A stretch of 64,000 nucleotides of DNA, from positions 72,335 to 136,334 of the IMG/VR virus record IMGVR_UViG_3300045988_120820. One strand, written 5' to 3'. Position numbers and translations under genes: made by a program. The notes below the pieces were generated by a model. That model worked only from the letters and a program-made list of their open reading frames with translations. It made no database searches and was not told where the DNA came from. Of this stretch, positions 165 to 61,613 are shown one piece after another; within the stretch, counting starts at the first letter, position 1; every line of letters begins with the position of its first letter. This DNA comes from a virus.

Positions 165-1934
165 CTAAAATCCATTTTTGTGATTAGCTCTTACATATGT
201 TGGATAATCGAAATAGCAAGTATCGTAATCTAAATCTCCATTGTGTCCTGGAAGTCTTTTAGTAGCTGACATTTGCCATAACTTAACCTCGGTTCTAGTC
301 CAAGTACAAGCTGAACTCCATTGAGCTACCCATATGTGGTCAGTATATTTTATATTACTCCAATTCACATAACTTGTTGCCCATGAGTTATTAGTGTAAA
401 TTCCTGCCATATAACCTGCATCATTTATTATTTGACAGAAAGTATTCATACAATTAGTTAACACTGTTTTTCCTGGATTACCCATTTTATCAACTAAGTC
501 ATTTTCTTGGTCAAAGAACACTGGGAATTCAAATGTTTGAGAATATTTATTTAATTGTTGAACCACCCAATTCGCTTCTATTTTAACCTTTTCAACTGTA
601 TTTGCATATGAGAAGAAATAAACACCTACAGGGATTTTATTTTCAACACACAATTTTAAATATTCTTCAAATTTTGGGTCTATTATAGGTTGTCCACCTT
701 TTCTGCTACCATAACCAATTCTTAATATCACAAAATTTATACTACCATTTTCTTTTAAAGTTTTTAAATCTATTGTACCTTGCCATCTTGATATATCTAT
801 TCCATAACAAGGCACTGTGAATCCTGTACTACCTCCTACTTCTCCTGTTCCTCCTGCATCAACTGTTATCGTAGATATACTTACATATGAACTACTAGCA
901 TTTATATATCCTATACTATTATTATAGCTTACTTTAACCCATGAAGTATTTGTATAAGTTTCAAGTATTGGTAGTGTATATCCCTTAGGTACTGCTCCTA
1001 ATACACTATATTTTACACCCATTCCACTTCTAACATTTAAAGCATTACAAATTACTTTTGCAACTTTAGTAGTAGAAGATAATAATAATCCCACATACGC
1101 TTTACCTGTATTTTCTCCTATTGCAGTAGCAGTAGGTTGGTCTTTACAGTTTATAGCGAATACGGGAAGACTGTGTGAAGAACTTAATCCTAAAGCATCA
1201 TTACTTATTGTTCCTGTTATTTGGAATACCTTACCGTCTATATCCTTTCCAGTGTCTGCAAATTTAACATATTGTCCAACATATCTTTGGTCAGTAGTTA
1301 AACATACATTTTTATCTGGATATTTATCACTTGTAAATTCTGAATCTATATAATAACCCATTATAGTTGAGTCTAAAGTTAAATTAGACACCCATACAGT
1401 TTTATCTTCAGCGGGTGGCTTTACAGGTGTTGGATTACTTGGGACATCTTTTCCATCATCGTCATCATCTTTAGGTTCTTCATAAATTCTTATCCATAAT
1501 TTATATTTTGGGTCATTAGGAATATCACTACCAATATATATTTCTTCTTCTGTAAAATGTTCAAACATATATTTAAATATATCATTAAGAGAATCAAATT
1601 TAGTTCCTTCAACTAAACCCTCTTTGTAACTACATAATTCTTTTCTCATAGTTTCAATTAATTCGTCTTTAGTCATATCATTGTTATCTAATAAAGCTCC
1701 TATACCTTTTACTTCATACGCAACTTTAATTTCCGTATCCAACTCTTCAAAAGAGGAAACTATCAAGCATTCTTTTTCTTCGTCATATTCTGGTTCTACT
1801 CCGTTTATTTTTTTAAACCCATATTTTTTCATTAGGTCTTCATTTGTATTAAAGTTAGTTATTAAATTCCCTTCTGAAGTTTTATAATTCATAGGAGCAT
1901 ATACTAATTGATTATTTATAATTTTTCCGTACAT
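165..1934 (-). CDS. GH25 muramidase-domain protein with SH3b-like domain and long N-terminal region (endolysin or virion-associated lysin)
   Basis: C-terminal GIDISRWQG...FVILRIGYG...VGVYFFSYA... is the GH25 lysozyme pattern. ALNVRSGMGVKYSVLGAVPKGYTL...WVKVSYNNSIGYINASSSYV is SH3b-like. A D-rich/PxP linker follows residue ~155. Confidence 0.85.
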   Translation of the reverse strand: MYGKIINNQLVYAPMNYKTSEGNLITNFNTNEDLMKKYGFKKINGVEPEYDEEKECLIVSSFEELDTEIKVAYEVKGIGALLDNNDMTKDELIETMRKELCSYKEGLVEGTKFDSLNDIFKYMFEHFTEEEIYIGSDIPNDPKYKLWIRIYEEPKDDDDDGKDVPSNPTPVKPPAEDKTVWVSNLTLDSTIMGYYIDSEFTSDKYPDKNVCLTTDQRYVGQYVKFADTGKDIDGKVFQITGTISNDALGLSSSHSLPVFAINCKDQPTATAIGENTGKAYVGLLLSSTTKVAKVICNALNVRSGMGVKYSVLGAVPKGYTLPILETYTNTSWVKVSYNNSIGYINASSSYVSISTITVDAGGTGEVGGSTGFTVPCYGIDISRWQGTIDLKTLKENGSINFVILRIGYGSRKGGQPIIDPKFEEYLKLCVENKIPVGVYFFSYANTVEKVKIEANWVVQQLNKYSQTFEFPVFFDQENDLVDKMGNPGKTVLTNCMNTFCQIINDAGYMAGIYTNNSWATSYVNWSNIKYTDHIWVAQWSSACTWTRTEVKLWQMSATKRLPGHNGDLDYDTCYFDYPTYVRANHKNGF

Positions 1935-4578: not shown

Positions 4579-6105
4579 CTAAACATTTGTATTATTTTCA
4601 AGAGCATCTAATCTTGATTCTATGTTAGATAATCTTGAATTTATATTTCCTATTTTAGAATTTAAATCATTGACTTGATTTTGAACTTCTAAGATTTTAT
4701 CATTTAATCTTTTTTCAATTTGTTGTAAATTAACTTCACTCGTTGCTGAATTAATTAAGTTTATACAGTTTAACATTTGTGAGTTCAATTTATTTCTAGC
4801 TTCCCTATATAATGCTAATCTTATAGTGAATCTTTTTCTTTCATCTTTATTAAAAATTAAATCTTTCATATCTACTTTTATTGAATTAATAAAATCTGTG
4901 TGTTTTGCTTTAAAATCATCAAAATATTCTTTTAATAATTGTTTATTATTATCGCCTAACTTCTCATTATTATAGTAAGATTGATAACTAGCTTCTATTT
5001 TAGAAACGTAATTAACCATTCCATTTGCTAAAGCGTCCAACGAATTATATTGTGCTACCGTTAATTTCCCATCCACGTTTAACAATGAATTAATTATAGG
5101 TAACATGTCATTTGAGTACTTTTGATTTGCATCAAAATATCCTTGAATAGTTTGTTGTTCTTTAGCGAAAGAATTAATCAATGAAGCTTGTAATTCACTC
5201 ATATTACTAGATAAATCATCTATTCTAGCATTTGTATTATAAACTTCATCTGATATAGTACTTGAAGCCCCTAATGTTTTTTCGCCTTCTGAACCTATAG
5301 ACAATATTGTACTACATGAATCTTTAAAAGAAGATAATGTTATCAATATCGTAGTTATATTAGATGTTATGGAAGAAATATCTGCTAATGTTATATTTTC
5401 TCTATCATCCTCTGTGACGATTTTAATTTCTACAATTAAATCAGCCAGCATTTTTTGCAAAGATAGTTGATATTCTAAAAAAGATGTTGTGTCTACATCA
5501 TTAGAATTTTCTGCCATCATATCAATTAAAGCATCACTATATCCTAGCATTTCTTCAAATTTATTATTGATTGTATCTAACCTATAATTGACATCTGCTT
5601 TTTCTGCTGAATTAAATGTCTCATCGGAAAGTCTATCGGTTAATGTGGTTTTTAAATCTATCATTAAAGAATTGGAATTTATTATTGCTGTATTTAATAA
5701 TTCTTTAATTTGTTCAAATGATAAGTTTTCTTGATATTCTTTTGATAAACTTTCTATATTATCTTGAGTGATTTCAAGTTGTTTTTTATAAAATTTATTG
5801 TTTTCAGTGACTCCTTTTAATTTCTCTGCTATCGACTTTTTATTATATCCATCAAATAACATTTCCAATGTATCTGTTGTAGTTGTAACACTAACACCCT
5901 CTATATTTTTAATTATAAATATCAAGTCTTCTTTGTCATCTAATTTATTATTTGAACTTACTAAATCAGAAGTTTCTATCTTCCAATAGATATACTTGTC
6001 TTTTGTATATATATTATTTATAGGAAATATTTGTTCATTATATTTAATGGATAAATCCTTTATGTAAATGTATCCTTGAGTTGGTGCGTTATTAATTATT
6101 GCCAT
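4579..6105 (-). CDS. coiled-coil tail fibre/structural protein
   Basis: Long heptad-rich sequence in the tail module. The likely start is the ATG at 6105, 8 nt after AGGAGG (the track's GVG start at 6114 abuts the SD). Confidence 0.45.
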   Translation of the reverse strand: MAIINNAPTQGYIYIKDLSIKYNEQIFPINNIYTKDKYIYWKIETSDLVSSNNKLDDKEDLIFIIKNIEGVSVTTTTDTLEMLFDGYNKKSIAEKLKGVTENNKFYKKQLEITQDNIESLSKEYQENLSFEQIKELLNTAIINSNSLMIDLKTTLTDRLSDETFNSAEKADVNYRLDTINNKFEEMLGYSDALIDMMAENSNDVDTTSFLEYQLSLQKMLADLIVEIKIVTEDDRENITLADISSITSNITTILITLSSFKDSCSTILSIGSEGEKTLGASSTISDEVYNTNARIDDLSSNMSELQASLINSFAKEQQTIQGYFDANQKYSNDMLPIINSLLNVDGKLTVAQYNSLDALANGMVNYVSKIEASYQSYYNNEKLGDNNKQLLKEYFDDFKAKHTDFINSIKVDMKDLIFNKDERKRFTIRLALYREARNKLNSQMLNCINLINSATSEVNLQQIEKRLNDKILEVQNQVNDLNSKIGNINSRLSNIESRLDALENNTNV

Positions 6106-6120
6106 GCATTTCACCTCCTA

Positions 6121-6151
6121 CATAAAAATAACACCTATAAAATATAGGTGT
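6121..6151 (-). terminator. rho-independent terminator after the free-standing endonuclease gene
   Basis: Stem ACACCTATA/TATAGGTGT, followed on the - strand by TATTTTTAT. Confidence 0.65.
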
Positions 6152-6165
6152 TTATACTAAATTTA

Positions 6166-7395
6166 TTAATTATTTTTAATCTGTAATGTTTCTAATAAAA
6201 TTTCTTCTATATTATCTATATCATAATACCAAATTTCTAATAAATTAATATTACGTTCTTTTGCATATTCCTTTTTTCTACGGTCATGTTCTAATTGACG
6301 TTCAAATTTTTCTTTAGTTTGCCAACCCTCTTGCCATTTTTCATGTTGAATTCCTTGACATTCTATTAATAGATTATAATCTGGTAAATAAAAATCGTAA
6401 GATAAATTACCACCTTTTAATCCAATTAAACCATTATATTCTACTTGAATATTATAGTTTATATTATATTTTTCTAAAATATCTTTAGTTTTTATTTCTA
6501 ACTGTGAAGAATTGCACTCTTTACACACTACACCTGTATCTACTTTATTTAAATTTAATAAACTTCTTTCAAATTCTTGTCCGCATTTTTCACAAATAAA
6601 TTTATATTTTTTGTTACTCATAGGTGAAACTTCAAAAGGTGATTTTTTATTATTTTTACTCCAATATTTAGCTTTTTCGGGATATAAACTACCAAAGCTG
6701 TCTTTCGGATGTACTTTATGATTACTACAATATGAACATCTACAACCATTGTAAAATTTACTTGGAATGGTTTTATACCCACCATAATCATTATGATAAT
6801 CTTTTTCTTGACACAATATCCAAATATCTCTCGCATTATTTTTACTTATTTTAAATGGATTTAAAGTATTTTTGCTACTCCAATATTTCTCTACAGCATC
6901 TTCTCCATAAGTATTTATTAAATATTGTCCAAAACTGTCTTTAGGATGAACTTTTTTACTAGAGCAATAAGGACATCTTGCTTCTTCTGTGAAATGAGCA
7001 GGTGTTATAAAATAACTTCCATGATAATCTTTCTTATCACATTTAATAACCACCTTTTCTTTATAATATTTATTTATTAAATAAGGATTGACTGTATTTT
7101 TCTCCCAATCCCAATATTTATTTAAAGGTTCTTGTAATTCTTGTTGAATATAATAAGCAAAAGAATTTTCATAAGTATTACAGCAGTTAGTACATTTACA
7201 CTTATGTTTTCCTACAAAACCTCCCAATCGTACATCATATTCTTTACCACAATATGGACATTTTACTCTAATATAACTTAAATTTTTAGAATATTTACCG
7301 TCGATAGTAATTTCTCCGCAATGATAACTCCCAATATAAATATATCCATCACCACGATTTTCAACTTTTTCTTTATGCTCTTCATTATAATACAT
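6166..7395 (-). CDS. free-standing homing-endonuclease-like protein: repeated treble-clef zinc ribbons plus C-terminal Vsr/PD-(D/E)XK-like nuclease fold
   Basis: Repeated CPYC...C..C and W.W.KN...P motifs (DUF4379-like). C-terminal YDFYLPDYNLLIECQGIQHE...ERQLEHDRRK resembles DUF559/Vsr-type nucleases. Paralog at 39236..40249. Has its own SD and terminator. Confidence 0.6.
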   Translation of the reverse strand: MYYNEEHKEKVENRGDGYIYIGSYHCGEITIDGKYSKNLSYIRVKCPYCGKEYDVRLGGFVGKHKCKCTNCCNTYENSFAYYIQQELQEPLNKYWDWEKNTVNPYLINKYYKEKVVIKCDKKDYHGSYFITPAHFTEEARCPYCSSKKVHPKDSFGQYLINTYGEDAVEKYWSSKNTLNPFKISKNNARDIWILCQEKDYHNDYGGYKTIPSKFYNGCRCSYCSNHKVHPKDSFGSLYPEKAKYWSKNNKKSPFEVSPMSNKKYKFICEKCGQEFERSLLNLNKVDTGVVCKECNSSQLEIKTKDILEKYNINYNIQVEYNGLIGLKGGNLSYDFYLPDYNLLIECQGIQHEKWQEGWQTKEKFERQLEHDRRKKEYAKERNINLLEIWYYDIDNIEEILLETLQIKNN

Positions 7396-12231: not shown

Positions 12232-15200
12232 CTATAATGATTTATTAACAATATCTTTTAAAGTTTTATTAATCATTTCTTGCATGTCATCAAGAACATT
12301 TTCATCAACACTTCCTTCAACATTAATATTGATATCACCCACATTTAATGTTTTAGAAGTTGTATCTTTATTCATACCTTCTTTATAATTTACATTTCCT
12401 AATTGTTTGAATCCAAGTTCTTTAAATATATCTTTATAGTCTTTTAAATAATCCAAAGCTACTTCAAGATTATCACACAATTCTGTTTTAATTGAATCAC
12501 CTAATATTCCTACTGCGTCTCCACTTGTTTCTGCAAAGTCAATCAATTTATCTTGTAAATTGGTAATATTACCATTTAAATCAGTAAAAGTATTAGTCAT
12601 CATCGCATCTTTAACCATTTGTGCTATTTTTTGTGGAGTATAAGTGTCATCTATATTTTGTGTCATATCTTCTTTCTTTTTATCTAAAGCGTCTAATTGT
12701 TCTTGGAACATATTATCGATGTCTTCATCAACCTTATTTTGAACTGTTTCATCTAATTTATCTTGAGCTTCTTTTAAATCGTCTAATAATTCTTTCAACT
12801 TAGATTTACCACTCATAGAATTATCTCGTTTTGCTAATTCTATTTTTTTATTAATAGTGTCAATTTCGTCTTGTTGTTCTTTTAAATTTTTTGCATAATC
12901 ATCTTCATCACGTTGTTTTTTATAATCATCTCTTCTTTTTTCTATTAATTCTTTTTCTTTGTCATATTGTTTTTCTATAGCGTCTTTACGTTTATCTATT
13001 TCATCTTTTATTACATCTGTGATTTTATCTTCTATGTCTTTCACTTTATTAAGTTTATCTTTTTGTAAATCTACTATGTTTTTTTGTAAATCAGCATAAT
13101 TTTTTTCTGCGTCAGCTAAATCGTCATTTATTAAAGAAGTATATTCTTCTAATAAATCATTAACCTTTTCCAAATCTTCACTGTTTTGAAAACTGTTTAA
13201 TACTTCGTCTATATTGCTTACATTTCCTTCTACATCAAATGTGAAACCATATTTAGATAAACTTTCTTGATATGTAGGAATCTTATTTTTCATATTAGTC
13301 ATTAAATCCATTTGTTTAGATAGTTGTTCATTCATAAGTTTTAATTTTTCTTCTGTCAATTTAATTGTATCTACTCCATTTGAATTTTCTAGTTTAACAT
13401 CTATTATATCAATTTTATTTCCTAGTATATCGAATTGATTTTTTAATTGAGTTATGGCGTTGCTAAATTTATACAATTTATCTTCTCTAGTTAGTTTTTC
13501 AATTTCGTCATTATTTTCTTTAATTGTATTTTTCATTTCTTGCCATTGTTCTTCACAACTAAATATATCACTTTGTTGTATATCATAATATTTATTAGCT
13601 AAGTTTGTAAGTTTATCCAATTCTTCTTTATATTTACTAGCTTTATCGCTTGCTGTATTATTTGAAGAACCACTAGAAGAGCTACTTTTAGAAGATTTAT
13701 CGGCTACATCTTGAAGTCGTTTATATTCTTTTTGCATAGCCAATAATTTTTCTTCATAGTTAGTCATATTCCCATCTTCATTAAATTTGAATCCTTCTTT
13801 TTGAAGTTTTTGTTGAAGTGTTTCTCTTTCAGAAATTAAATCGTCATAATATTCTTTTTGAAGTTTAGCCTGTTCTTCTAATAATTTATTTTTTTGTTTA
13901 AGATATTTAATTTTTTCAGTACCTACTGCTTTTTCCATTTGTTTATCTAATAATGAAGTTTTCTTAGTTACTGTTTCAATTCTATATTGCAACTCTTTAA
14001 ATAATTCAACAGAGTACTCAATCATATCTAATACATTTTGATATTCAAGGCTTATAGGAGTTAAAGCTGTTTCTATATCACCTATACTATTAAAATCTCT
14101 CGTAGCATAAGTACTTATTCCACCAGAACTATCTGAAGTAGAATTTGTTGTGCTTATATCATTTGCAGTTACTACAGGTTGTGAAGTCACCATTGGTGTA
14201 GCACTCAATTGCTCTACAGAATAAGGATTATCTTCTATATTAGAAAATTCACCTATAGAATCTCCCCACATTACTGATTTTCCCTTTCCACTATGAGGAA
14301 CTTTTGATTTACCTTTTTCTGTATAGCTTAACGTAGCCATTATTGATATACTTCGTGGTATTTCGTTTATTTTTTGTTTTAAACTATCTAATTTATTTGA
14401 TATATCGGCACTATTACTAATTATTTTAATATATTTCTCTGGAATTTTTAATCCTTGAAGTGCATAAAGTTGCTGTAATGCTTGAAAAGCCATTACGGTA
14501 ACATCTACAACTTTATTTTTTAATTGTATAGCATCTACAGTTCCAAGTTCATCTAATGCATTAGATAATGCTACTCCAACTTCAATTTGTTTTTCTGCTG
14601 GTAGTTGCCCTATTAAGTCCATTACGGTTGCTATGTCACCTTGAGCTAAAGCTTTATCTATTTTTACTTTTATGTCTTTTTCATCTTTTTCATTTAATAG
14701 ACTATCTATTTCAGCCTTAGCAGTTTTTATTGTATCTTCACCTAAAACATTTATATGACAACTTGTTACTGCTTCTGGATGGTCAAATACCCATTGAATC
14801 ATGTCTTCATAAGATTTCAATTCAGATAAATCTTGAATGTTATTTTTAAAAAATGTTTCAATGTTTTTATCTTTACCTCTTAAATTATCCATTAATTTGG
14901 CATAATTTTCAACTTGGTCGGTATTTTCTATATTCGCTCTTAAAGTTTTTACTATTTCATCTTTTCCGTCAAATTGTTTAAAACTCGCAAAAGCGTCATC
15001 TATTTTCTTTTTATCGTCATCAGATACAGCATATTCTCCTGTAACAAACAGTTTACCTACATCTATTTTACCTTTTCCAAATTGTTTATCTACAAGATTT
15101 TGAACGTCTTGAATTAAATTATTTCTAGTTTCTTCATCATCTTCTACATAAATTTGAGATAATTTAGCTGTTAATTCCATATCGTCTAAAGAAAATTCAT

Positions 15201-16194
15201 TGTCGTCCATCAATCGATTAACCAAATCTTTTACTTTGTCTGGTAAATTACTATCTTCTAAAGTGGCTTTAACTTCTTTGATGTTGTAAACCATTTTTCC
15301 GTCTTTTTCTACTGTATCAAGACCACTTAAATCTTGAAGAAAATTATTGTAAGCGTCCCATGTTGCCATTAAATCTTTAGTTTCTTTATCTGTCATGTTT
15401 ATGTTTTTACCAAAAGAACGTAAATAAGCATCCATAGCATTTTGAGCCATTTTAGCACTTTCTGGTAACTCTACCATACTTCTAGCTACATCTTCATTTA
15501 CTCCCCATAATTTGGCTAAAGAAGGGATTAATTTTTCAATTCCTTGTTCATAAGCAGTAATGTCACTTGTGTCTGCGTATGCTTGTTGTAAATCATACAA
15601 TTTTCTTATTGATTTATCTATTGTTCCAGAATCAAACATTTTTTTCATATTCGATTCAAATAAACTTTGTTGTCCACTTGTTAATTGAGAAAAATCTAAT
15701 CCATTTACAACTTCTATCATTTCAGATTGAACGTCACTTTTTAATTTACTGAAACCATCACCTATAGACAAAGAGTTTACTATACTTTTATTAATTTTTT
15801 GAGATTCGGCACTTATTTTTGCTTCAGCATCTACAACTGCCTCTTTAGCACTAGCATACGTATCACTTAATTTAGCAAGCCTTTCTGAATAATCTTCTAG
15901 CCATGCTGAATCACCTGTTTGAACAAATGTGTTATTAAGTTCATCTTTCTTTTTTCTGATGTTTTCTATTTGTCTATTATATTCCTTAATTGCTTGTTTA
16001 TTGAAAGCCCCATCTTTACCAGCAAATCCTTGTCCTTCATTCATTTTGTCTGTAGCATTTCTTTGTTGGTCTTTATATTCTTGATTCAGAGCCTCTTGTT
16101 GTTTCTTGATTAATTTATCATATTTTGCAATTAATTTATCAATATCTCCACCCATCGATAAAATCGGGTTATTATCTTTATCATACAATATCTT
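12232..16194 (-). CDS. tape measure exon 5
   Basis: ORF 12232..16197 has only a TTG 'start' inside intron-like sequence and no SD. Coiled-coil rich. Frame joins ...EDIVLG|KILYDKDNNP. Confidence 0.8.
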   Translation of the reverse strand, partial: KILYDKDNNPILSMGGDIDKLIAKYDKLIKKQQEALNQEYKDQQRNATDKMNEGQGFAGKDGAFNKQAIKEYNRQIENIRKKKDELNNTFVQTGDSAWLEDYSERLAKLSDTYASAKEAVVDAEAKISAESQKINKSIVNSLSIGDGFSKLKSDVQSEMIEVVNGLDFSQLTSGQQSLFESNMKKMFDSGTIDKSIRKLYDLQQAYADTSDITAYEQGIEKLIPSLAKLWGVNEDVARSMVELPESAKMAQNAMDAYLRSFGKNINMTDKETKDLMATWDAYNNFLQDLSGLDTVEKDGKMVYNIKEVKATLEDSNLPDKVKDLVNRLMDDNEFSLDDMELTAKLSQIYVEDDEETRNNLIQDVQNLVDKQFGKGKIDVGKLFVTGEYAVSDDDKKKIDDAFASFKQFDGKDEIVKTLRANIENTDQVENYAKLMDNLRGKDKNIETFFKNNIQDLSELKSYEDMIQWVFDHPEAVTSCHINVLGEDTIKTAKAEIDSLLNEKDEKDIKVKIDKALAQGDIATVMDLIGQLPAEKQIEVGVALSNALDELGTVDAIQLKNKVVDVTVMAFQALQQLYALQGLKIPEKYIKIISNSADISNKLDSLKQKINEIPRSISIMATLSYTEKGKSKVPHSGKGKSVMWGDSIGEFSNIEDNPYSVEQLSATPMVTSQPVVTANDISTTNSTSDSSGGISTYATRDFNSIGDIETALTPISLEYQNVLDMIEYSVELFKELQYRIETVTKKTSLLDKQMEKAVGTEKIKYLKQKNKLLEEQAKLQKEYYDDLISERETLQQKLQKEGFKFNEDGNMTNYEEKLLAMQKEYKRLQDVADKSSKSSSSSGSSNNTASDKASKYKEELDKLTNLANKYYDIQQSDIFSCEEQWQEMKNTIKENNDEIEKLTREDKLYKFSNAITQLKNQFDILGNKIDIIDVKLENSNGVDTIKLTEEKLKLMNEQLSKQMDLMTNMKNKIPTYQESLSKYGFTFDVEGNVSNIDEVLNSFQNSEDLEKVNDLLEEYTSLINDDLADAEKNYADLQKNIVDLQKDKLNKVKDIEDKITDVIKDEIDKRKDAIEKQYDKEKELIEKRRDDYKKQRDEDDYAKNLKEQQDEIDTINKKIELAKRDNSMSGKSKLKELLDDLKEAQDKLDETVQNKVDEDIDNMFQEQLDALDKKKEDMTQNIDDTYTPQKIAQMVKDAMMTNTFTDLNGNITNLQDKLIDFAETSGDAVGILGDSIKTELCDNLEVALDYLKDYKDIFKELGFKQLGNVNYKEGMNKDTTSKTLNVGDININVEGSVDENVLDDMQEMINKTLKDIVNKSL

Positions 16195-19100
16195 CAATTA
16201 GGTTCGCTACTTCCTAATCAGTTCTCTTATGAACTTCTCTATGTTTCCATAGAAGTTGAGACTATATCTTTACCTTTATTAAAGGCACATACCACTTCCA
16301 CTCGCTTGAGTGTACGAGCATTTGCTCTAGTCGTTGAAGTTTACTTTTATTAATTGCTTAAATTATATTTTTTTGAAAATTCAATACTATTTTTTAATCT
16401 ATTAGGTTTATATTTCATATCAAATTTATAATAAAATTCTTTTGGTATATATTTTAAATAAGGTCTGACTACATCAAAAAATTTTCTAAAATTTGTAGCG
16501 TTAAAATACAATCTATAATATGTTCTATTCTTATATCCTTTGATTCCAGATTTATCAGTATGTATTTTTAAATCTATATCAAACCTTCTCTTAAACATGT
16601 CTTTAATTCTTACATTATCTTTATAACTGAAGCCTTGAGTATTTAGATACCCAAATCTTTTAGCATAATTATTTTTAAACGAAACATGCCAGTTTCCATC
16701 ATCTAAAAACCAAAGTAATAAACCAAAAGAATTTATATTGTTTAAAACTGTGTCTGATAAATATTTTTTACCATTTAATAATGTATTCTTTTTAAATTCT
16801 TCTTTATTAGGAATTTTTATTCTAACATTAGAATAAATATAAATACCAAATGTTGTATTTTTTTCATAATCATATTTAGAATGAGTGTCTATTCCTAAAG
16901 AACTAAACGTATATTCTAACCATTCAACATAAAATCTTTGTTTATTGGTATGGACACAACGAATATACTCTCCATTGATATCACCATCCCCTAACATCAA
17001 TCCATATAAACTATTTATTATTTCTTTCTCATTTTTAATCATGTGAATACTCACTCCTTTTTTTATTTTCGCAATTAACTTAAAGTCTTACCTGCTGATT
17101 GCCCAATCCTTAAACTTTTTAAAACCATCACGCTCATCATTACTGATTACGTTGTGGTATTAAGGCTCTAAGGGGTTTCCAGCAATTCAATATGTTTTCT
17201 AATAATAATTTCTTATTATAGGGGCTATTTATTAACCCAAGACAATATCTTCACCACAAATATCAATTATTTGTTGTTGTAACTCTTTAAATCTTTCTTG
17301 TTGTGCAGAAGTTTTATCTACTGTATCGTATAATTTTTTATATTCATCTCTAATATTGGATAAATTTGTTTTTGCTTTTGTTGAGCTAGTTACTTTATTA
17401 TTTAAATTGGTTATATTTTCTGCATTTTTTTCTAAAGCGTCATTAAGTTTATTAGCCTCGTCTGTAAAATGTTGAATAACTTTACCTATTCCCCATGATA
17501 CGAGCATACCTATACCCATATTTATAACGCCCATAGCTAAATTCATAGCTCCTAAAGCTACTTTTGTTCCTAATGCTTTAGCCTCTACACCTGCTAAAGC
17601 ACTTCTAACTGCTGTTAATCCAGAGGCAAATACTCCAGATGATTGACGAGCCTCTTTAAATGAAGTACCTATCCCTTTTATTACATTCCAAGATTTTCCA
17701 AGATAACTAGCTTGAAATCCTTCTTTTATTGTTGCAAAGAATCCTGGATTAGCAGTCCCAACCATCGTAGCACTAGATGCTTGTCGTGTTGCAGTGGCTT
17801 GTCCTTCTAGTGCAGTAGTTGTACTCAAAGCTTCGGCTTTTAATCTTCTTTCTTGATTAATTAATGCTTCAAATCCACCACTTTGATTAAATTTTATTGA
17901 TTCAAAAATACCAGAAATTGCCCCTGCTATTACGGGTAATCCTACACCCATGTCATCTATATACTTAACAAATTTATCTAACATGTCTAAAGCACTTATA
18001 CCAATGTCTAAAAATCCTTTTGCCGTATTTCCACTTACAGCTGTATTGACTATACTTCTCCATTTTTCTTGGAGTAATGTAAGTTTCCCTTGCACGGAGT
18101 CTATATATCTTGCATTCGTTATCTTCACATAAATTCGCTACATTTACGCAGTTCTCTTATGAACTTCCTATACTTTCATATAGAGTCGAGACTATTTCTT
18201 CACCTTCAGCATTATCTGTTAAGGGCAAAGTATTTCCACTATCAATAGCTTATAGTGTACGGTTTCACAACCTAGTCGTTGAAAGTTTAATCTAATTTAT
18301 TAATTATTTTTTAAATCTTTTAAATGATTTTTAATTATATTAGATTAATACTTGCATGAACACCCATTGTTTAAGATTACTTAGGATTTAACCATATAAT
18401 CATCCTTACGTTTTTTCTACTTTCGTACCTTCACGTTTATTGTTACCAATTACGTTGTGGTGTAAGGCTTTAGGGATTACCTGCTTTTAACTTTGTGTCC
18501 TACGCACATTTCTGTACGTACGGAGAATGTTGTTTCTCTTTCATTGAACTTCCGAAAGTGTCGCCATTTTCGTACTCTTTCATAAATTTTTCTGCTTGAC
18601 TCCAGTTACTCATTATTGCTGTGAAAACGTTCAGTTGGTTTTTCGGTTTGTTATCGTAAAGGCTTTTTATCCTCTACTTCTTATAGTTTCCTATAAGCCC
18701 AGCATACATTTTCACCCTCGTTTAACGTTAGGTATTGATGGTTGCAAACCCATCTCAAGTATTACTATATAATACTGTGGAGGAGGCTCGTGATAGGATT
18801 ATTGCTAACAATATCGCTCACCTATTATGCGTTACGGATGTTCTCTGTTAAGACACCCTCGGTATTACCATATCCGTTAAGGACTTAGGCTCTCTTACCA
18901 CCTTAATCTTTCGATTTAGTTGACCGATACACCCCTCTAATCTACATGATATTTCTACCATGAGTGGCATAATATTTAATTAATAGTTTATATTTTTTAA
19001 ATTTTCTTTCTAAATATATATTTGAATTTTTATAAATATAATCACAAAAAGTTAATACATCTTCTTTTTTATTAGTTACTAATCTAAAGATATCATTGGA

Positions 19101-22100
19101 TTTACAATTCGTTTTGTAAATTCTCCCCAATGGAATATTTGTATTCAAACATATACCTTCTAGGATATTTTTAGTTCCTAATATTTCTATACTTTGATGT
19201 TTTTCAGTACAAACAATACAACCATCTCCATCTAAATACCCTCTTATAAAATGAGGTGTTAATTCTTTAGGAACTTGTTCTTCTGTTGGAAAAGTTAATG
19301 TCAATGATTTTCTAGGAGTACATCCTAATTTAATTAAATCTTGCTTCATTTTTTTATTTTTAAAAGATACTCTACATCTAAAATCATCTACAATTAATTT
19401 TCCCTCAAACCCTATAAAATCTTTGAATTTTTGAAGATGCTCTTTATCTGATAATTGTAAAGAAAGTTCTATATCATTTCTTTTACCACTTGAAATACTT
19501 CCATCGGCATATAAAAATCCTAACCAATAAGCTTTTTCTTCAGAGTCTATTTTCTCAAATATATCATCGTTTATCTTCTTTTTATGTGGCATAATATTAA
19601 CTTTTATACCTTGGTTTTTTAAATAAGAAGAAAATCTACTTCTTGAAATTTTTAATTCTTTACTGATTCTAGCTGTAGATACTCCTTCTAAATACATTTT
19701 TAAACCCAAATTATATTTTTCTAAAGTTTCCTCCATCATAATATTCACCCCCTTTTTATTCTTTCCTTTATTAATTATTTTTAAACCTTTTAAACTATTA
19801 ATTTATATACCTGCAATCGCTTCAGCTACAGAAGATTTACTTTTTTTATCTAATTTATCCCACATTCCTGCTATATCGCCCATGATGTCATAGAAATCTC
19901 TAACTTGGCCATTTGAATCGTGCATATCAATTCCAGTTATTTTTTCTATGGCCATTGCTGTTTTATTCATTGAAATACTCGAATTGTTATTAACGTTAAG
20001 TTTTTTATCTTAACCTCTGGAAGTTTCCTTCATTTTCATCGATTGGTCATTTCCAATCCAGTCTGGCGTACATATTCCATCTCATATAAGACAGTCGGAG
20101 ACTCTTGGAGGAATTATATTCTATTTAAATAGTTTCATCCTCTACGCTCTACATTATTGAATAAGTTTTAATTTATTCAATTAACTCGGTATTAACTTAT
20201 CTTTATTAATTATTTTTAAGACTTAGTCTTTCTTACCATATGTATTACTACATATATGACCGAATTTCCCCGAACCGGCAATATTATTTACCGTCTTTAG
20301 CACTTGTTTTCCAACCTGCCATATTTTGCATGATTGTTTTTAAACCATTACCTAATTTACTTGCATTTTGTAATGGTTCTTGCCCTGCAATTATAATAGC
20401 AACCAACTCTTGCATACTAACACCTAATGTTTTCGCAACAGAAGATGAACGCATCATTGCTTCAGATACGTCTTTACCTGTAACAGCATAGTTGTTGTTT
20501 GCATAGTTGACCATATCCATCATTTGCATCATTTTGGTAGTTTCTTTGGTGTTACCTTTGACTTTCATTGTGACTTTATCTAATGAGTTTGCAACACCAC
20601 CATAAGATGCTAATGTTGATTTCAAGTATTTATCTGCATCTGCTTGGCTTGTATCTATAACGTTGGCAAACATAGATGCATTTTTAGCATATTGTAAAGC
20701 TTTACTAACATTATGGAAACCAGATTGTAATGCCTCGGCAGTGGAATCAATTATATCAATACTACTTCTGGCAACCTCTTGACCTGCCTCACTTGCTTTT
20801 TGAGTTAACCAATCTAATTGCTTGGCTGTTCCTGTAAAGGTGTCTGGTGCAACTTTTAATAATTTTTTAATAGCCGTATCTGTATCAATAATAGTACTAG
20901 GAATTGAAGATATACCTTGAGTGATAAGTCTACCAATCATATTTGGTATTGAATACATTGATAACATAGAGGCTAAATTACTGAAAAATCCAGACGTTTT
21001 CTTGGTTGCATTTCCTAATATATTCATTGCTTGAGTTGCACTTCTAGCACCATTAGCAACTCCGTTTATACCATTTCCGTTAATATTAGATAGACTACTA
21101 GAAAAAGTACTTACGTCTTTAGTCAGTGCTTTTAACTCTGCGTCTCTATCTTTTAAATTACTTATACTAGCTATAGTTTGTAGTCTTTGTTTAAATTCTT
21201 CTACCTTAGATGATGAAGCTCCTAATTCTTGACATCTTCTTGTTAAGTTTGTTAAATCTTGAGATACTTTATTAAAATCTGCATCAAATTTTACATTAGC
21301 TCTTTTAGTAGAAATTTCACTTTCAAATTGTTTATATTTATTTTCACATTGTGCTATTTTATCTTTTAAACCATCAAATTCAGCTTTAGCACCTTCTGTA
21401 TTAGGGTCTATATTTCGTAATTTTGATTGATATTGTTCTATTTGAGTTATTAGTTCTTGTATTCCAGATGTATTAGCAAATTTACTCGTTCCTAATTCAG
21501 CAAGTTTAGCTTTAAGAGATTCTAACTTAGCAACAGATGTATTTATCTTATCGGTGAATGTAATTGAACCATTCAATCCTTTTAATGACACCGACACATT
21601 ACTAATCTCTGCATTTAAATTATGTATTTGTTCATATGCCTTGTCAGATTTTAATATTTGACTTAAATCAGCACCTTTAACATTATTGATTTTATTTTGA
21701 AGTTCTTGAAGTTGTCCCATCTGTGAACTTGTTAAGTTTTTATTTTTGAACATATTATTAATTTGTTCAGAGGTATTATTAGCCTTTTGTTGAATTTTAT
21801 CAAATGAACTTATTAAATCTCTACTTATATCTATATTAGATTTATTTTTTAAGTTGTCCATTTTTTGTGCAGTAGATTGCATCTCACTGTTAATTTTTGA
21901 TAACTTAGATTCTAACTCGTTATAAGCTTGAGTATTTATAGTTTTAGACATTTGTTTTTGAAGTGATTCTGATTGTTTTTGTAAAACTTTATATTTAGCT
22001 ATAGTATTATCTAATTCTTTATTACCTGTAGAAGTCTTAGTAGAACCACTGCCAAATAAATTTTTTTGCACGTCTTTACTTAAAGAATTTATTTCTTTTA

Positions 22101-22320
22101 AAGTGTTTTGTATTTGTTTAAGATTGTTTAATTGGTCATCTTTAAGTTTAAAGGCATTGTTTAGTACTTTTTGAAGTTCTTCCATTTGAGCTTTCATTTT
22201 AGTAGTATCAAATTTTAGATTAACTTCTTTTTTCTCTAGCTTTTCCTTCAACTTAGCAACTTCTTGCTCTGCACCACTTCCATCTACAGAAGTTTTTAAC
22301 CTAATAGTTAAATCTGCCAT
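12232..22320 (-). CDS. tape measure protein, split gene (5 exons, ~2390 aa after removal of 4 intervening sequences)
   Basis: The TP901-type TMP core continues across ORF fragments and two hand-translated mini-exons. The downstream fragments lack an SD/ATG. The intervening segments are structured and GC-enriched. Confidence 0.85.
16195..17234 (-). mobile_element. group I-like intron D (family alpha) carrying a LAGLIDADG ORF
   Basis: An in-frame TAA follows GGT at the proposed 5' splice site. GCCC 9 nt inside can pair with exon GGGU (P1-like). GACTA...TAGTC (P7-like) pairing. GAAA-capped hairpin at 16232..16257. The 3' end ...CCTAATTG is aligned with intron C. Confidence 0.85.
16350..17042 (-). 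CDS. LAGLIDADG homing endonuclease (double motif), intron-encoded
   Basis: LYGLMLGDGDI and LLLWFLDDGNW motifs. ATG at 17042 follows AAGGAG. Confidence 0.9.
   Translation of the reverse strand: MIKNEKEIINSLYGLMLGDGDINGEYIRCVHTNKQRFYVEWLEYTFSSLGIDTHSKYDYEKNTTFGIYIYSNVRIKIPNKEEFKKNTLLNGKKYLSDTVLNNINSFGLLLWFLDDGNWHVSFKNNYAKRFGYLNTQGFSYKDNVRIKDMFKRRFDIDLKIHTDKSGIKGYKNRTYYRLYFNATNFRKFFDVVRPYLKYIPKEFYYKFDMKYKPNRLKNSIEFSKKYNLSN
17235..18125 (-). CDS. tape measure exon 4
   Basis: KITNARYIDSVQGKLTLLQEKW... matches the conserved ...Y.DS.QGK... segment of TP901-type TMPs. Followed by a Gly/Ala-rich hydrophobic stretch. Confidence 0.8.
18126..18533 (-). mobile_element. group I-like intron C (family alpha), ORF-less; 5' boundary uncertain (18534-18558)
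   Basis: Alignable along its length with the capsid-gene intron (35037..35415) and with the halves of intron D. GAAA hairpin at 18162..18188. Contains the junction motif at 18297..18307, where intron D carries its ORF. Confidence 0.75.
18534..18653 (-). CDS. tape measure mini-exon 3 (hand-translated)
   Basis: KNQLNVFTAIMSNWSQAEKFMKEYENGDTFGSS... continues ...AEAIAG from exon 2. This is the typical AIAGK.Q.NV..A.MSN TMP core. Confidence 0.7.
18654..19808 (-). mobile_element. group I-like intron B (family beta) carrying an HTH-LAGLIDADG ORF
   Basis: The 3' ~290 nt is alignable with the terL intron, including GATAAAAAGCC...GATAACAAAYCG at the 3' end. Hairpin with GAAA loop at 18690..18707. Confidence 0.8.
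18942..19739 (-). CDS. LAGLIDADG homing endonuclease with N-terminal HTH, intron-encoded
   Basis: WLGFLYADGSI and RGYLDGDGCI motifs. N-terminal TARISKELKISRSRFSSYLK is HTH-like. ATG at 19739 follows GGGGGTG. Confidence 0.9.
   Translation of the reverse strand: MMEETLEKYNLGLKMYLEGVSTARISKELKISRSRFSSYLKNQGIKVNIMPHKKKINDDIFEKIDSEEKAYWLGFLYADGSISSGKRNDIELSLQLSDKEHLQKFKDFIGFEGKLIVDDFRCRVSFKNKKMKQDLIKLGCTPRKSLTLTFPTEEQVPKELTPHFIRGYLDGDGCIVCTEKHQSIEILGTKNILEGICLNTNIPLGRIYKTNCKSNDIFRLVTNKKEDVLTFCDYIYKNSNIYLERKFKKYKLLIKYYATHGRNIM
19809..19975 (-). CDS. tape measure mini-exon 2 (hand-translated; 5' end approximate)
   Basis: ...NKTAMAIEKITGIDMHDSNGQVRDFYDIMGDIAGMWDKLDKKSKSSVAEAIAG matches the TP901 core region. 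Confidence 0.7.
19976..20289 (-). mobile_element. putative ORF-less intron A in the tape measure gene (family unclear)
   Basis: Separates two in-order TMP core pieces. GCCG 10 nt inside can pair with exon end GACGGU. Contains AGAGTCTC and the junction motif (20203..20213). Structure less clear than in the others. Confidence 0.55.
20290..22320 (-). CDS. tape measure exon 1
   Basis: ATG at 22320 with SD. MADLTIRLK... coiled coil, then ...LGNGLKTIMQNMAG... typical of the TMP core. Confidence 0.85.
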
Positions 22321-57494: not shown

Positions 57495-57546
57495 ATAAAC
57501 ATAATAAACAACAAAAATAATTAATAAAAAAATTAATAAAAAGTTG

Positions 57547-57575
57547 TTGACAAAATAAACAACAAGTGATAACAT
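57547..57575 (+). promoter_or_regulatory. early promoter P2
   Basis: TTGACA, 17-nt spacer, TGaTAACAT. Confidence 0.6.
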
Positions 57576-57693
57576 TATAATATAAGTATTAGACAAGGGA
57601 GAACGCCCAATAGTTCATTAAGTAACAAAATATAATTCATGGGATTAGCTACTCACTAGCTAAAAATAATTAATAAAAATCCAAAAAAAGTAT

Positions 57694-57723
57694 TTGACAA
57701 AAGAATATAACTTGTACTACAAT
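57694..57723 (+). promoter_or_regulatory. early promoter P3
   Basis: TTGACA, 18-nt spacer, TACAAT. Confidence 0.55.
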
Positions 57724-57850
57724 TGAATTAATAATCAATCGACAACCTTGTATAACATAAGTAATAAAATCAAATCTAAAAAAACTTAAATGTTTTGATA
57801 TCCTCTATCAAGTGTTTAAGGAAATAATTAATAAAAAGGAGATAAGAAAA

Positions 57851-58207
57851 ATGTTAAAATTAACAGTAAAAAAAGAATTAGAAAACGGAAATTATCTAGT
57901 AAACTTTAATCTTGACGGTGAAGACTTAGGGAATAGAGAAGTAACATACGAATGGATAAGAGCCGACATAATAACTGGGAATAGAGAAGTAACATACGAA
58001 TTTGAAACAGACGTTAAATTCGACCATATAGAAGTTGACGAAGAAGACGGCGAAGGATTTGTATATATAATAACAACATTAGCTACAGAAGAAGGAATAA
58101 TGGTATTAAACGAAGAACAAAAAGTATACAAAAATTATAAAAGAGCATTAACACAAGGGCAAAAGCTAGCACAACAAATGGATACTATATTAATAGTAAT
58201 CAACTAG
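57851..58207 (+). CDS. hypothetical early protein with internal 16-codon duplication
   Basis: The ATG at 57851 follows AAGGAG. GNREVTYE occurs twice. Confidence 0.55.
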   Translation: MLKLTVKKELENGNYLVNFNLDGEDLGNREVTYEWIRADIITGNREVTYEFETDVKFDHIEVDEEDGEGFVYIITTLATEEGIMVLNEEQKVYKNYKRALTQGQKLAQQMDTILIVIN

Positions 58208-58251
58208 TTAGCATAATAAAAAAAATAATTAATAAATAGGGGGAGTAAAAA

Positions 58252-58695: not shown

Positions 58696-58748
58696 TCCTT
58701 CCAGCTCAATGCTATTATTTATGATAATGAAAACAATTAATAAAATTG

Positions 58749-58777
58749 TTGACAAATATTAAATGATAGTATATAAT
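58749..58777 (+). promoter_or_regulatory. early promoter P4
   Basis: TTGACA, 17 nt (…AAATGATAGTA), TATAAT. Confidence 0.7.
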
Positions 58778-58812
58778 ATCGATATAAAATAAATTGATAG
58801 GAGTGATGAGTT

Positions 58813-61598: not shown

Positions 61599-61613
61599 AA
61601 GGAAGGTGATATT

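What the first reader, a model, noticed from the sequence alone, without database searches (positions are those of the whole stretch)
12232..22320. Tape-measure gene broken into five exons by four group I-like introns, two carrying LAGLIDADG endonucleases
On the - strand, ORF 20284..22320 starts with a proper SD/ATG and ends ...TSAKDGK*.
- The conserved TP901-type TMP core then continues in two pieces the ORF track misses; I translated them by hand. About 19809..19975 reads ...NKTAMAIEKITGIDMHDSNGQVRDFYDIMGDIAGMWDKLDKKSKSSVAEAIAG. About 18534..18653 reads KNQLNVFTAIMSNWSQAEKFMKEYENGDTFGSS...
- The core goes on in ORF 17232..18128 (KITNARYIDSVQGKLTLLQEKW...) and ORF 12232..16197.
- None of the downstream pieces has an SD or ATG. 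The track 'starts' are GTG/TTG codons sitting in non-coding sequence.
- The four gaps (about 314, 1155, 408 and 1040 nt) are visibly GC-enriched against the AT-rich background. They contain conserved hairpins, and two encode double-motif LAGLIDADG proteins.
- At three 5' junctions the exon ends in GGU. A GCC(C/G) tract 9-11 nt inside the insert can pair with it, giving a P1-like helix with a U-G wobble.
- The joined protein would be about 2390 aa.
- As far as I know, several introns in one phage gene is rare (Twort orf142 is the classic case), and I am not aware of a four-intron tape measure.
Basis: partly seen in the sequence, partly recalled or inferred. Interest (0 to 1): 0.85.

Follow-up and report, generated by a model that had tools for sequence, protein, structure and literature searches.

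The report
Tape-measure gene with four self-splicing introns
A phage tail tape-measure gene is split into five pieces by four mobile group I introns, two of them carrying homing-endonuclease genes; this is a crowded example of something already known in phages, but one intron seems to break the usual rule for marking its 5' splice site.

Summary
On the - strand, five exons (22320-20290, 19979-19809, 18643-18536, 18116-17235, 16185-12232) join into one 7146-nt ORF of 2381 aa.

A related viral contig (L009) matches this joined sequence end to end in a single alignment: 7146 of 7146 nt at 96% identity. Across 17 related contigs each insert is independently present or absent.

The inserts are group I introns of two families:
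- **I3 and I4:** an ORF-less I4 allele scores 83 bits on Rfam RF00028. I3 is a paralogue.
- **I1 and I2:** these belong with the phage AR9 gyrA intron family, which RF00028 also misses.

In both families the core helices covary strongly. All four introns end in G. I1, I2 and I4 follow a U paired to G.

I2 carries a LAGLIDADG gene in its P1 loop, and I4 carries one in its P6 loop.

Splicing itself is inferred; there is no RNA evidence.

Introns in tape-measure genes were described in 2008 (Bacillus cereus-group prophages), and phiCD211 has one annotated. Four in one gene is therefore a matter of degree.

The unexpected point is I3, and a sister intron at about 35.4 kb. Each follows a G paired to C rather than the canonical U·G wobble.

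The parts
20290..22320 (-). Tape-measure exon 1 (677 codons). SD GGTGAGGA then ATG at 22320. Ends ...GAC GGT.
   Evidence: PF10145 profile positions 2-147
19980..20289 (-). Intron 1 (310 nt, no ORF). Family B group I intron (AR9 gyrA type). P1 is CGGU/GCCG with a U·G pair. Ends ...AATTCG.
   Evidence: Absent in 8 of 17 related contigs. Helix table. Covariation. Homologues. No RF00028 hit.
19809..19979 (-). Tape-measure exon 2 (57 codons)
   Evidence: PF10145 profile positions 144-201
18644..19808 (-). Intron 2 (1165 nt). Family B group I intron with the endonuclease ORF inserted in the P1 loop. The guide GCC lies at 18968..18966. Ends ...AAACCG.
   Evidence: Absent in L008-L011. ORF-less alleles of 337-362 nt occur in 10 contigs. 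Helices.
18942..19739 (-). LAGLIDADG homing-endonuclease gene of intron 2 (265 aa; RBS AAAGGGGGTG; N-terminal HTH). Its last codons overlap the guide sequence and P2.
   Evidence: PF14528 and PF13384. phrog_4645 'endonuclease' at 206 bits. Motifs YWLGFLYADGSI and IRGYLDGDGCI.
18536..18643 (-). Tape-measure exon 3 (36 codons). Ends ...AAA GAG.
18117..18535 (-). Intron 3 (419 nt, no ORF). Family A group I intron, paralogue of intron 4. Position -1 is G. The guide CAUUCUC (+7..+13) is complementary to the ligated junction GAG|AAUG. Ends ...ATAACG.
   Evidence: Absent in 7 contigs. Alignment. Covariation.
17235..18116 (-). Tape-measure exon 4 (294 codons). Ends ...TTG GGT.
16186..17234 (-). Intron 4 (1049 nt). 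Family A group I intron with the endonuclease ORF in the P6 loop. P1 is GGGU|UA/UAGCCC with a U·G pair. J8/7-P7 is AAGATATAGTC at 16270. Ends ...ATATTG.
   Evidence: The ORF-less allele L008:7269-7586 scores RF00028 83.0 bits, E 9e-22. Absent in L009 and L023. Covariation.
16350..17042 (-). LAGLIDADG homing-endonuclease gene of intron 4 (230 aa; RBS AAAGGAGTGA)
   Evidence: PF03161 at 67 bits. Motifs LYGLMLGDGDI and LLLWFLDDGNW.
12232..16185 (-). Tape-measure exon 5 (1317 codons plus stop). Starts TAT GAT AAA.
20202..20216 (-). Copy of the phage's recurrent promoter-like 15-mer AAAATAATTAATAAA inside intron 1
19767..19781 (-). The same 15-mer inside intron 2, about 30 nt upstream of the endonuclease ATG
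18296..18310 (-). The same 15-mer inside ORF-less intron 3. Probably left over from a lost endonuclease cassette.

Best explanation
The region is one tape-measure protein (TMP) gene of a roughly 135-kb siphophage distantly related to phiCD211. It has been invaded at four phase-0 sites by mobile group I introns.

**Inferred mechanism**
- After transcription each intron folds into the group I core: P1-P10, including the P3/P7 pseudoknot.
- The intron uses a guanosine cofactor to cut after the exon nucleotide held in P1. It then joins the exons after its own 3'-terminal G.
- The result is a 7146-nt mRNA encoding a 2381-aa TP901-type tape measure.
- Introns 2 and 4 encode double-motif LAGLIDADG endonucleases. 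These presumably cut intron-less alleles in co-infecting phages, so that repair copies the intron in (homing).
- Introns 1 and 3 have lost their endonuclease genes.

**Shown here**
- Exon structure and exact borders.
- Presence/absence polymorphism of each intron.
- Group I fold with covariation.
- Endonuclease family of the two ORFs.

**Inferred only**
- Self-splicing.
- Endonuclease activity and target.
- Use of the intron-internal promoter-like motif to express the intron 2 endonuclease.
For: **Exon structure**
- The joined exons form one ORF with a single terminal stop.
- L009 aligns to the joined sequence in one HSP, 7146/7146 nt at 96.0%.
- All four sites are polymorphic among 17 IMG/VR contigs. 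ORF-less and ORF-containing forms of I2 and I4 both occur.

**Protein domains across the junctions**
- PF10145: one 80-bit hit in the joined protein, against split hits of 53 and 30 bits in the pieces.
- TIGR01760: 78 bits, spanning junctions 1 to 3.
- The 208-aa joined core aligns in one piece to uninterrupted TMPs of phiCD211-like and Bacillus phages.

**Group I identity**
- RF00028 scores 83 bits over the full model on ORF-less I4.
- Family A 3' domain: 95.2% of cells paired. 19 of 34 pairs have compensatory changes. Covariation score 0.52 against 0.18 in shuffles (0 of 500 reach it) and at most 0.11 in slid controls.
- Family B 3' domain: 92.6% paired, 16 of 32 compensatory, score 0.45 against 0.18 (0 of 500).
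- P3 and P7 covary and keep the group I order in 9 family B introns.

**Homology to accepted introns**
- Twort nrdE intron 2.
- AR9 gyrA, annotated as a three-part join.
- Enterococcus phage nrdF intron.

**Splice-site features**
- U at -1 paired to a guide G in I1, I2 and I4.
- A 3'-terminal G in all four.
- P10 pairings of 3-7 bp, read.
Against: - There is no RNA or protein evidence of splicing.
- RF00028 finds nothing in the window itself, even at E<=10. It also finds nothing in ORF-less I2. For I1 and I2, group I membership therefore rests on my own helix assignment plus homology to introns the model also misses.
- Intron 3 lacks the U·G pair at its 5' splice site. That pair is described as critical (PMC4227781; PMC12355055).
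- P10 is only 1 bp in the ORF-containing I2 of the window.
Confidence: 0.9

Rival explanations
1. Intron 3 does not splice in the standard way. Because it has no U·G pair at its 5' splice site, it might be inactive, need a protein helper, or use another junction. Phages carrying it would then make an altered or split tape measure.
For: - Position -1 is G in all 10 alleles.
- No assignment of the junction consistent with the intron-less allele gives a pyrimidine at -1 (and my enumeration from it).
- The Anabaena intron needs a pyrimidine at -1.
Against: - The ribozyme part of I3 is under structural selection. P2, P7.1, P9 and P9.2 show compensatory changes between alleles about 80% identical.
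- The guide CAUUCUC is a perfect 7-nt complement of GAG|AAUG.
- L018 is an intron-less allele that reads exactly GAG|AAT.
- I3 occurs in 9 contigs of about 135 kb that look like complete phages.
- No start codon or SD precedes exon 4.
- A second family A intron at 35434..35026 shows the same anomaly, and its joined product matches phrog_4088 end to end.
Confidence: 0.2
2. The gene is really fragmented. The pieces are translated separately, and the inserts are free-standing endonuclease cassettes or junk rather than spliced introns.
For: - The ORF caller finds GTG/TTG 'starts' for the downstream pieces.
- RF00028 is silent on the window.
Against: - Those 'starts' lie in intron sequence with no SD.
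- Exons 2 and 3 are only 57 and 36 codons and split conserved domains.
- The inserts have covarying RNA structure.
- They are excised to the nucleotide in intron-less alleles.
- I1 and I3 carry no ORF at all.
Confidence: 0.03
3. The inserts are some other kind of intervening sequence, such as inteins or group II introns, or they are assembly chimeras.
For: LAGLIDADG endonucleases also occur in inteins.
Against: - All three frames of every insert contain stop codons, so none can be an intein.
- Rfam finds no group II intron, and there is no reverse-transcriptase ORF.
- Sizes of 310-419 nt without an ORF fit group I introns.
- The same inserts recur in many independent metagenome assemblies.
Confidence: 0.01

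Closest known systems
Group I introns TMP-IVS1, IVS2 and IVS3 in tape-measure genes of Bacillus cereus-group prophages (Tourasse & Kolstø 2008, PMC2504315)
   Same: - Group IA introns sit at several sites of a prophage TMP gene.
- They are polymorphic between related phages.
- Related introns have adapted to different sites through P1.
- Some have lost their endonuclease genes.
   Different: - That study reports three sites overall and, as described, at most two introns in one gene. Here there are four in one gene.
- The host clade differs: here low-GC relatives of phiCD211.
- Here two introns carry LAGLIDADG genes, and one has a non-U 5' splice site.
phiCD211 / phiCDIF1296T group of large C. 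difficile siphophages (LN681537, OR397124, CP069348, CP067347)
   Same: - Homologous TMP, about 35-41% identical in the core.
- phiCD211 has an annotated misc_RNA 'Intron_gpI' splitting its TMP.
- AR1086-1, pCD1602_4 and ES-S-0107-01 each have an unannotated TMP intron.
   Different: - As far as I looked, each has one intron, and at other positions.
- The AR1086-1 intron is 5 nt from the I2 site of the window, and the pCD1602_4 intron is 3 nt from it.
- I found no paper that discusses these introns.
Staphylococcus phage Twort introns (orf142 with three introns; nrdE with two)
   Same: - Several group I introns in one phage gene.
- The I4 core (P3-P6) is 79% identical to Twort nrdE intron 2.
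- The endonuclease gene sits in a peripheral loop.
   Different: - Twort nrdE-I2 carries an HNH endonuclease rather than LAGLIDADG.
- It has a canonical CACCU| 5' splice site.
I did not check it here.
Jumbo phage AR9/PBS1, BpSp and Yersinia phiR1-37 gyrA introns; C. perfringens vB_CpeS-1181 terminase intron
   Same: - Same RNA family as I1 and I2: 82-87% identity in the 3' domain, with the same P3, P7, P7.1, P8, P9 and P9.2 and compensatory changes.
- Also missed by RF00028.
   Different: - Different host genes.
- Some carry the ORF in other loops.
T4 td, nrdB and nrdD introns
   Same: - Group IA introns with an endonuclease ORF in a loop, which also carry their own promoter.
- Spread by homing.
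   Different: - T4 has one intron per gene.
- Its endonucleases are GIY-YIG or HNH.
- That T4 intron ORFs use internal late or middle promoters is established knowledge, not tested here.

Membership tests
Group I intron | Precise intervening sequence whose removal restores the host ORF | tested here: met
   The joined exons form one ORF. The intron-less allele L009 is colinear over 7146 nt. Each site has intron-minus alleles.
Group I intron | 3'-terminal G (omega-G) | tested here: met
   All four end in G at the only junction consistent with the intron-less alleles..TTCG..ACCG..AACG..ATTG.
Group I intron | P1 helix with the last exon nucleotide U wobble-paired to a guide G (introns 1, 2 and 4) | tested here: met
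   I1 is CGGU/GCCG, I2 is GGU/GCC and I4 is GGGU/GCCC. At site 2, intron-plus alleles have GGT where intron-less alleles have GGA.
Group I intron | P1 helix with U·G at the 5' splice site (intron 3) | tested here: not met
   The exon ends ..AAAGAG in all 10 alleles. The G at -1 pairs with C11 of the guide CAUUCUC, and no pyrimidine assignment is possible.
Group I intron | Conserved catalytic core (P3-P8, P3/P7 pseudoknot, J8/7, G-binding pair in P7), supported by covariation | tested here: met
   Family A: RF00028 full-length alignment; P7 GACUA/UAGUC is invariant, and P7.1, P7.2, P8, P9 and P9.2 covary; P3 is ACAUA/UAUGU in I4 and CAAAGU/ACUUUG in I3. Family B: P7 is GC[A/G]UA/UA[U/C]GC with 4 and 4 sequences of each type; P3 shows five different complementary pairs.
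Group I intron | Score at or above Rfam RF00028 gathering threshold (50 bits) | tested here: inconclusive
   Met by the ORF-less I4 allele L008 (83 bits). Not met by any copy in the window, nor by I1 or ORF-less I2 alone. In the control, the model gives T4 td only 40 bits and misses T4 nrdB and the AR9 gyrA introns.
Group I intron | Guanosine-dependent self-splicing | not testable with these tools
   Needs in vitro transcription and splicing, or RT-PCR.
LAGLIDADG homing endonuclease | LAGLIDADG domain with two motifs in a monomeric enzyme, encoded in a peripheral intron loop | tested here: met
   PF14528 at 33 bits (cut-off 22.5) and PF03161 at 67 bits (cut-off 25). Two motifs each are readable. 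The ORFs lie in the P1 loop (I2) and the P6 loop (I4): the ORF-less alleles delete 19798..18973 and about 17082..16387.
LAGLIDADG homing endonuclease | Cleaves the intron-less allele at or near the insertion site | not testable with these tools
   Candidate targets are the L009 sequences around GCAGGA|AAAAAC and TTGGGT|TATGAT.
TP901-type phage tail tape-measure protein | TIGR01760 / PF10145 core domain | tested here: met
   The joined protein gives TIGR01760 at 78 bits (cut-off 28.8), profile 6-336 of 349, and PF10145 at 80 bits, profile 2-201 of 201.
Intein (considered) | Insert is in frame with the host protein and has no stop codons | tested here: not met
   Stop codons occur in all frames of every insert.
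Group II intron (considered) | Domain V/VI RNA and a reverse-transcriptase ORF | tested here: not met
   No Rfam group II hit at E<=10. The ORFs are LAGLIDADG. The ORF-less forms are only 310-419 nt.

The most novel reading that the evidence does not exclude
Intron 3, and a sister family A intron at window 35434..35026, may be natural group I introns that splice after a purine.
- In both, the last exon nucleotide is G, Watson-Crick paired to a C of the guide sequence.
- This replaces the near-universal U·G wobble that normally marks the 5' splice site.
- In the sister intron a U·G wobble does exist, but one position downstream of the inferred cut.
- If both introns are active, 5' splice-site choice in this phage intron lineage does not depend on the wobble receptor. 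The continuous guide-to-ligated-exon pairing may set the site instead: 7 bp in I3 and 5 bp in the sister intron.
Probability: 0.5. Interest if true: 0.65.

Novelty: new member of a known kind. Interest (0 to 1): 0.5.

Why it matters
**Annotation.** Gene callers break this gene into bogus 'hypothetical proteins' with false GTG/TTG starts. Rfam's group I model misses five of the six introns in this window. Large phage genomes from metagenomes are probably full of unannotated introns of these two families.

**Intron dynamics.** Seventeen contigs carry many different combinations of the four introns. They include forms with and without the endonuclease gene, and one contig with no introns at all. 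This is a ready-made natural series for studying intron gain, endonuclease loss and co-conversion in an uncultured phage lineage.

**Ribozyme mechanism.** Two related introns with G at -1, alongside close canonical relatives (I4, AR1086-1, Twort nrdE-I2), give a simple way to ask whether the U·G wobble is really obligatory.

Tried and rejected
**Rfam**
- Gathering mode on the whole window gave nothing.
- E<=10 searches on 12000-22500, 18100-20300 and I1 alone gave no Intron_gpI hit.
- ORF-less I2 (L013) alone gave none.
- The control showed the model is insensitive to phage group IA introns, so these negatives were set aside.
I3 was therefore never searched on its own; its closest test was the 2.2-kb search.

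**Other searches**
- A genome-contig scan with the joined core found no relative.

**Papers**
- The Garneau et al. phiCD211 paper and the Landthaler et al. Twort nrdE paper are not held.
- Several hits for 'tape measure' plus 'group I intron' do not concern TMP introns.

**Discarded structure ideas**
- My first P7 for I1 (AGUCU/AGACU, then CCA(A)G/CUGG) is not kept in AR9 or BpSp.
- The P7 that covaries is GCGUA/UACGC.

**Alternative junctions for I3**
- I listed all combinations of a pyrimidine at -1 and a 3'-terminal G within about 15 nt that stay in frame.
- Each one adds or removes codons relative to the intron-less alleles, lacks a guide pairing, or would need the well-supported P2 strand as the guide.
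- All were rejected.

**First junction guess for the intron at about 35.4 kb**
- My first guess (exon ending GTAGCT) gave an immediate stop.
- It was corrected using intron-less alleles.

Full report

It also shows two ORFs inside the gaps, 18942..19748 and 16350..17054.

Exon 1 has a good ribosome-binding site and ATG. Pfam's PhageMin_Tail model is cut between exon 1 (profile positions 2-147) and exon 2 (144-201). Both gap ORFs are LAGLIDADG proteins.

The intron RNA segments are only mildly richer in GC (0.31-0.41). Exon 4 is just as rich, so composition is not diagnostic.

**2. Exact exon structure**

A provisional 208-aa join of the core aligns in one piece to uninterrupted tape-measure proteins of phiCD211-like Clostridioides phages and many Bacillus phages.

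A scan of IMG/VR with the same peptide returned 17 loci from phage contigs, most of them about 135 kb. They are 75-99% identical to the window at the DNA level.

BLAST of the window against these loci shows every insert present in some contigs and cleanly absent in others. One contig, L009 (IMGVR_UViG_3300045988_131721), lacks all four.

Aligning the junctions fixes the introns:

| Intron | Window coordinates | Length |
|---|---|---|
| I1 | 20289..19980 | 310 nt |
| I2 | 19808..18644 | 1165 nt |
| I3 | 18535..18117 | 419 nt |
| I4 | 17234..16186 | 1049 nt |

The five exons join into a 7146-nt ORF with a single terminal stop, encoding 2381 aa. All introns lie between codons. L009 aligns to this joined sequence in a single HSP, 1-7146, at 96.0% identity.

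In the joined protein, PF10145 becomes one full-length hit of 80 bits. TIGR01760 (tape_meas_TP901) spans junctions 1 to 3 at 78 bits.

The correct one is ...EDIVLG|YDKDNN....

**3. Population pattern**

| Site | Occupied in | Notes |
|---|---|---|
| 1 | 9 of 17 loci | |
| 2 | 13 of 17 | 10 without the ORF (337-362 nt); 3 carry the endonuclease ORF (L022 is cut off within it) |
| 3 | 9 of 16 | |
| 4 | 14 of 16 | mostly ORF-less (350-431 nt); two carry a different long insert |

Five contigs (L017, L019, L020, L021, L024) carry all four introns. L009 carries none.

At site 2 the intron-plus alleles read GGT at the exon end, where intron-less alleles read GGA. This fits co-conversion or selection for the U·G pair.

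**4. What the inserts are**

Rfam found no Intron_gpI in the window at any threshold. I ran a positive control:
- RF00028 gives the T4 td intron only 40 bits, below its own cut-off.
- It misses T4 nrdB, both AR9 gyrA introns and an Alicyclobacillus phage polymerase intron.

The negatives therefore say little.

On the ORF-less I4 allele alone (L008:7269-7586), RF00028 scores 83.0 bits, E 9e-22, over the full model. The alignment begins in the exon strand of P1. That allele is 92-94% identical to the corresponding RNA parts of the window's I4. In the window the LAGLIDADG ORF in the P6 loop breaks the model.

*Family A.* I3 is about 72% identical to I4 and shares its core. With the AR1086-1 TMP intron and a further intron in this window, they form family A.
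- On a MAFFT alignment of the 3' domain (13 sequences), the helices P7, P7.1, P7.2, P8, P9, P9.1 and P9.2 are 95.2% paired.
- 19 of 34 pairs show compensatory changes.
- The covariation score is 0.52, against 0.18 in shuffles (0 of 500 reach it) and at most 0.11 with slid partners.
- P3 also covaries: ACAUA/UAUGU in I4 and CAAAGU/ACUUUG in I3.
- The 5' core of I4 is 79% identical to Twort nrdE intron 2. That gene is annotated as a three-part join, and a paper held here cites it as an intron-containing gene.

*Family B.* I1 and I2 belong to a second family, which also includes:
- the gyrA introns of AR9/PBS1, BpSp and Yersinia phage phiR1-37;
- a C. perfringens phage terminase intron;
- the pCD1602_4 TMP intron;
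- another intron in this window.

My first guesses for P7 were not conserved in these homologues. The pairing that is conserved and covaries is GC[A/G]UA with UA[U/C]GC, four sequences of each type.

A script confirmed that in nine members the helices occur in the group I order: P1, (P2), P3, P4, P7, P7.1, P3', P8, P7', P9, P9.1, P9.2. P3 is different but complementary in each:

| Member | P3 pairing |
|---|---|
| I1 | UCGGGGA/UCUCCGA |
| I2 | GAGGGG/CUCCUC |
| AR9 | CUGGGG/CCCCAG |
| BpSp | UUGAGGU/ACCUCAA |
| CpeS-1181 | GAGCA/UGCUC |

Counting on a MAFFT alignment of the 3' domain (8 sequences) gives 92.6% paired and 16 of 32 pairs compensatory. The score is 0.45 against 0.18 in shuffles (0 of 500).

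The P7.1/P7.2-type insertions place both families in subgroup IA. I did not assign them further.

**5. Splice-site details**

- All four introns end in G.
- I1, I2 and I4 follow a U that pairs with a guide G: CGGU/GCCG, GGU/GCC and GGGU/GCCC.
- The nucleotides just 5' of the guide G can pair with the start of the next exon (P10). This is 6 bp in I1, 5 bp in ORF-less I2 and 3 bp in I4.
- In the window's I2 the endonuclease ORF sits in the P1 loop. The guide GCC therefore lies about 840 nt into the intron, at 18968..18966. The last codons of the ORF overlap the guide and P2.

I3 is different.
- The exon ends ...AAAGAG in all ten alleles.
- Intron-less alleles read GAA|AAT, or GAG|AAT in L018.
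- The only assignment that leaves a 3'-terminal G puts G at -1.
- The guide CAUUCUC (+7 to +13) is a perfect complement of the ligated GAG|AAUG. The splice-site pair is therefore G-C, with no wobble.

Published work calls the U·G pair 'critical and highly conserved' (PMC4227781). In the Anabaena intron a pyrimidine is required at -1, and swapping T-G to G-T abolishes activity (PMC12355055).

While checking this I found that the other family A intron in the window (35434..35026) shows the same thing.
- Intron-less alleles read GAAGGTGATG.
- Intron alleles read GAAGG|TAAC...AA(T/G)G|(C/T)GATG.
- The terminal G has the same spacing from GAAGAU as in I3, I4 and AR1086-1. The Gly codon is therefore split GG|N, and -1 is G.
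- One allele (L033) has a compensatory exon/guide change.
- The product joined this way matches phrog_4088 end to end.

The canonical relatives are I4, AR1086-1 (GCGAU|) and Twort nrdE-I2 (CACCU|). I cannot explain the two exceptions and flag them for experiment.

**6. Mechanism**

*Shown:* the borders, the fold, the polymorphism and the endonuclease families.

*Inferred from established knowledge of group I introns and homing:*
- the late transcript self-splices four times to give the 2381-aa tape measure;
- the LAGLIDADG enzymes cut intron-less alleles during mixed infection;
- endonuclease genes then decay, leaving ORF-less introns such as I1, I3 and most alleles of I2 and I4.

The 15-mer AAAATAATTAATAAA occurs 31 times in the window against 1.3 expected. 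It is always on the coding strand and mostly just upstream of ORFs.
- Copies lie in I1, in I2 (about 30 nt before the endonuclease ATG) and in I3.
- This looks like the phage's own promoter driving, or once driving, the intron ORFs, as in T4. It is untested.

**7. Comparison and novelty**

- Tourasse and Kolstø (2008) described group I introns at three sites in TMP genes of B. cereus-group prophages. They noted the same themes of site adaptation through P1 and of endonuclease loss.
- phiCD211's GenBank record already annotates an Intron_gpI between its 'minor tail protein' and 'tape measure' ORFs.
- AR1086-1, pCD1602_4, ES-S-0107-01 and Lactococcus phage AM8 also have split TMPs.
- Three different introns insert within 5 nt of each other at the AEAIAG|KN motif, in different phages.

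A four-intron TMP is therefore the crowded end of a known phenomenon, and it is not unique even in public data. I rate it a new member of a known kind, of moderate interest. The interest comes mainly from the non-canonical 5' splice sites and from the unusually complete natural series of intron-plus and intron-minus alleles.

Noticed in passing
window 43283..43634 (- strand): A fifth group I intron (352 nt, family B). The exon ends GAGAGGT, the guide is GCC and the intron ends AAATCG. It splits the terminase large subunit. The joined 595-aa protein hits Terminase_6N, TerL_ATPase and Terminase_6C across the junction.
   Followed up: partly
window 35026..35434 (- strand): A sixth group I intron (409 nt, family A; AAGAAATAGTC at 35108). 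It splits a 333-aa gene in the head region that matches phrog_4088 end to end once joined. Like intron 3 it has G, not U, at -1, and a U·G wobble one position downstream of the inferred cut. Intron-less alleles are in L039-L042. Other alleles carry an insert of about 900 nt.
   Followed up: partly
window, 31 sites, e.g. 6162, 7407, 23259, 30977, 40324, 49278 (-) and 57514..63961 (+): The 15-mer AAAATAATTAATAAA occurs 31 times (up to 1 mismatch) against 1.3 expected. It is always on the coding strand and usually just upstream of an ORF. It is probably a phage-specific promoter. The strand switch between about 50 kb and 57.5 kb marks divergent transcription units.
   Followed up: partly
L001 6298..6590, L030 about 1139..1406, L003 5713..5978, L002 5636..5929: GenBank phiCD211-like phages each carry a TMP intron at a different site. 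AR1086-1 (family A) is at AEAI|SGKN and pCD1602_4 (family B) at AAA|GK. phiCD211 (annotated Intron_gpI) is about 10 aa upstream of site 1, and ES-S-0107-01 is further upstream. All but phiCD211's are unannotated.
   Followed up: partly
L025 (Lactococcus phage AM8, KY554773) 6043..7299: The tape-measure gene of this 949-group lactococcal phage is annotated as two 'tail tape measure protein' CDSs separated by a 'zinc-ribbon-containing protein'. A family A intron core lies at the first break, so this is probably another unannotated TMP intron.
   Followed up: no
L009 / L041 (IMGVR_UViG_3300045988_131721): This one contig lacks all four TMP introns and also the intron at 35.4 kb. It is a natural intron-free reference genome for the lineage.
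   Followed up: no
L004, L005, L007 (control loci): Rfam RF00028 scores T4 td below its own gathering threshold (40.3 against 50). It misses T4 nrdB, both AR9 gyrA introns and the Alicyclobacillus MMB025 polymerase intron. Rfam-based intron annotation of phage genomes is therefore very incomplete.
   Followed up: yes
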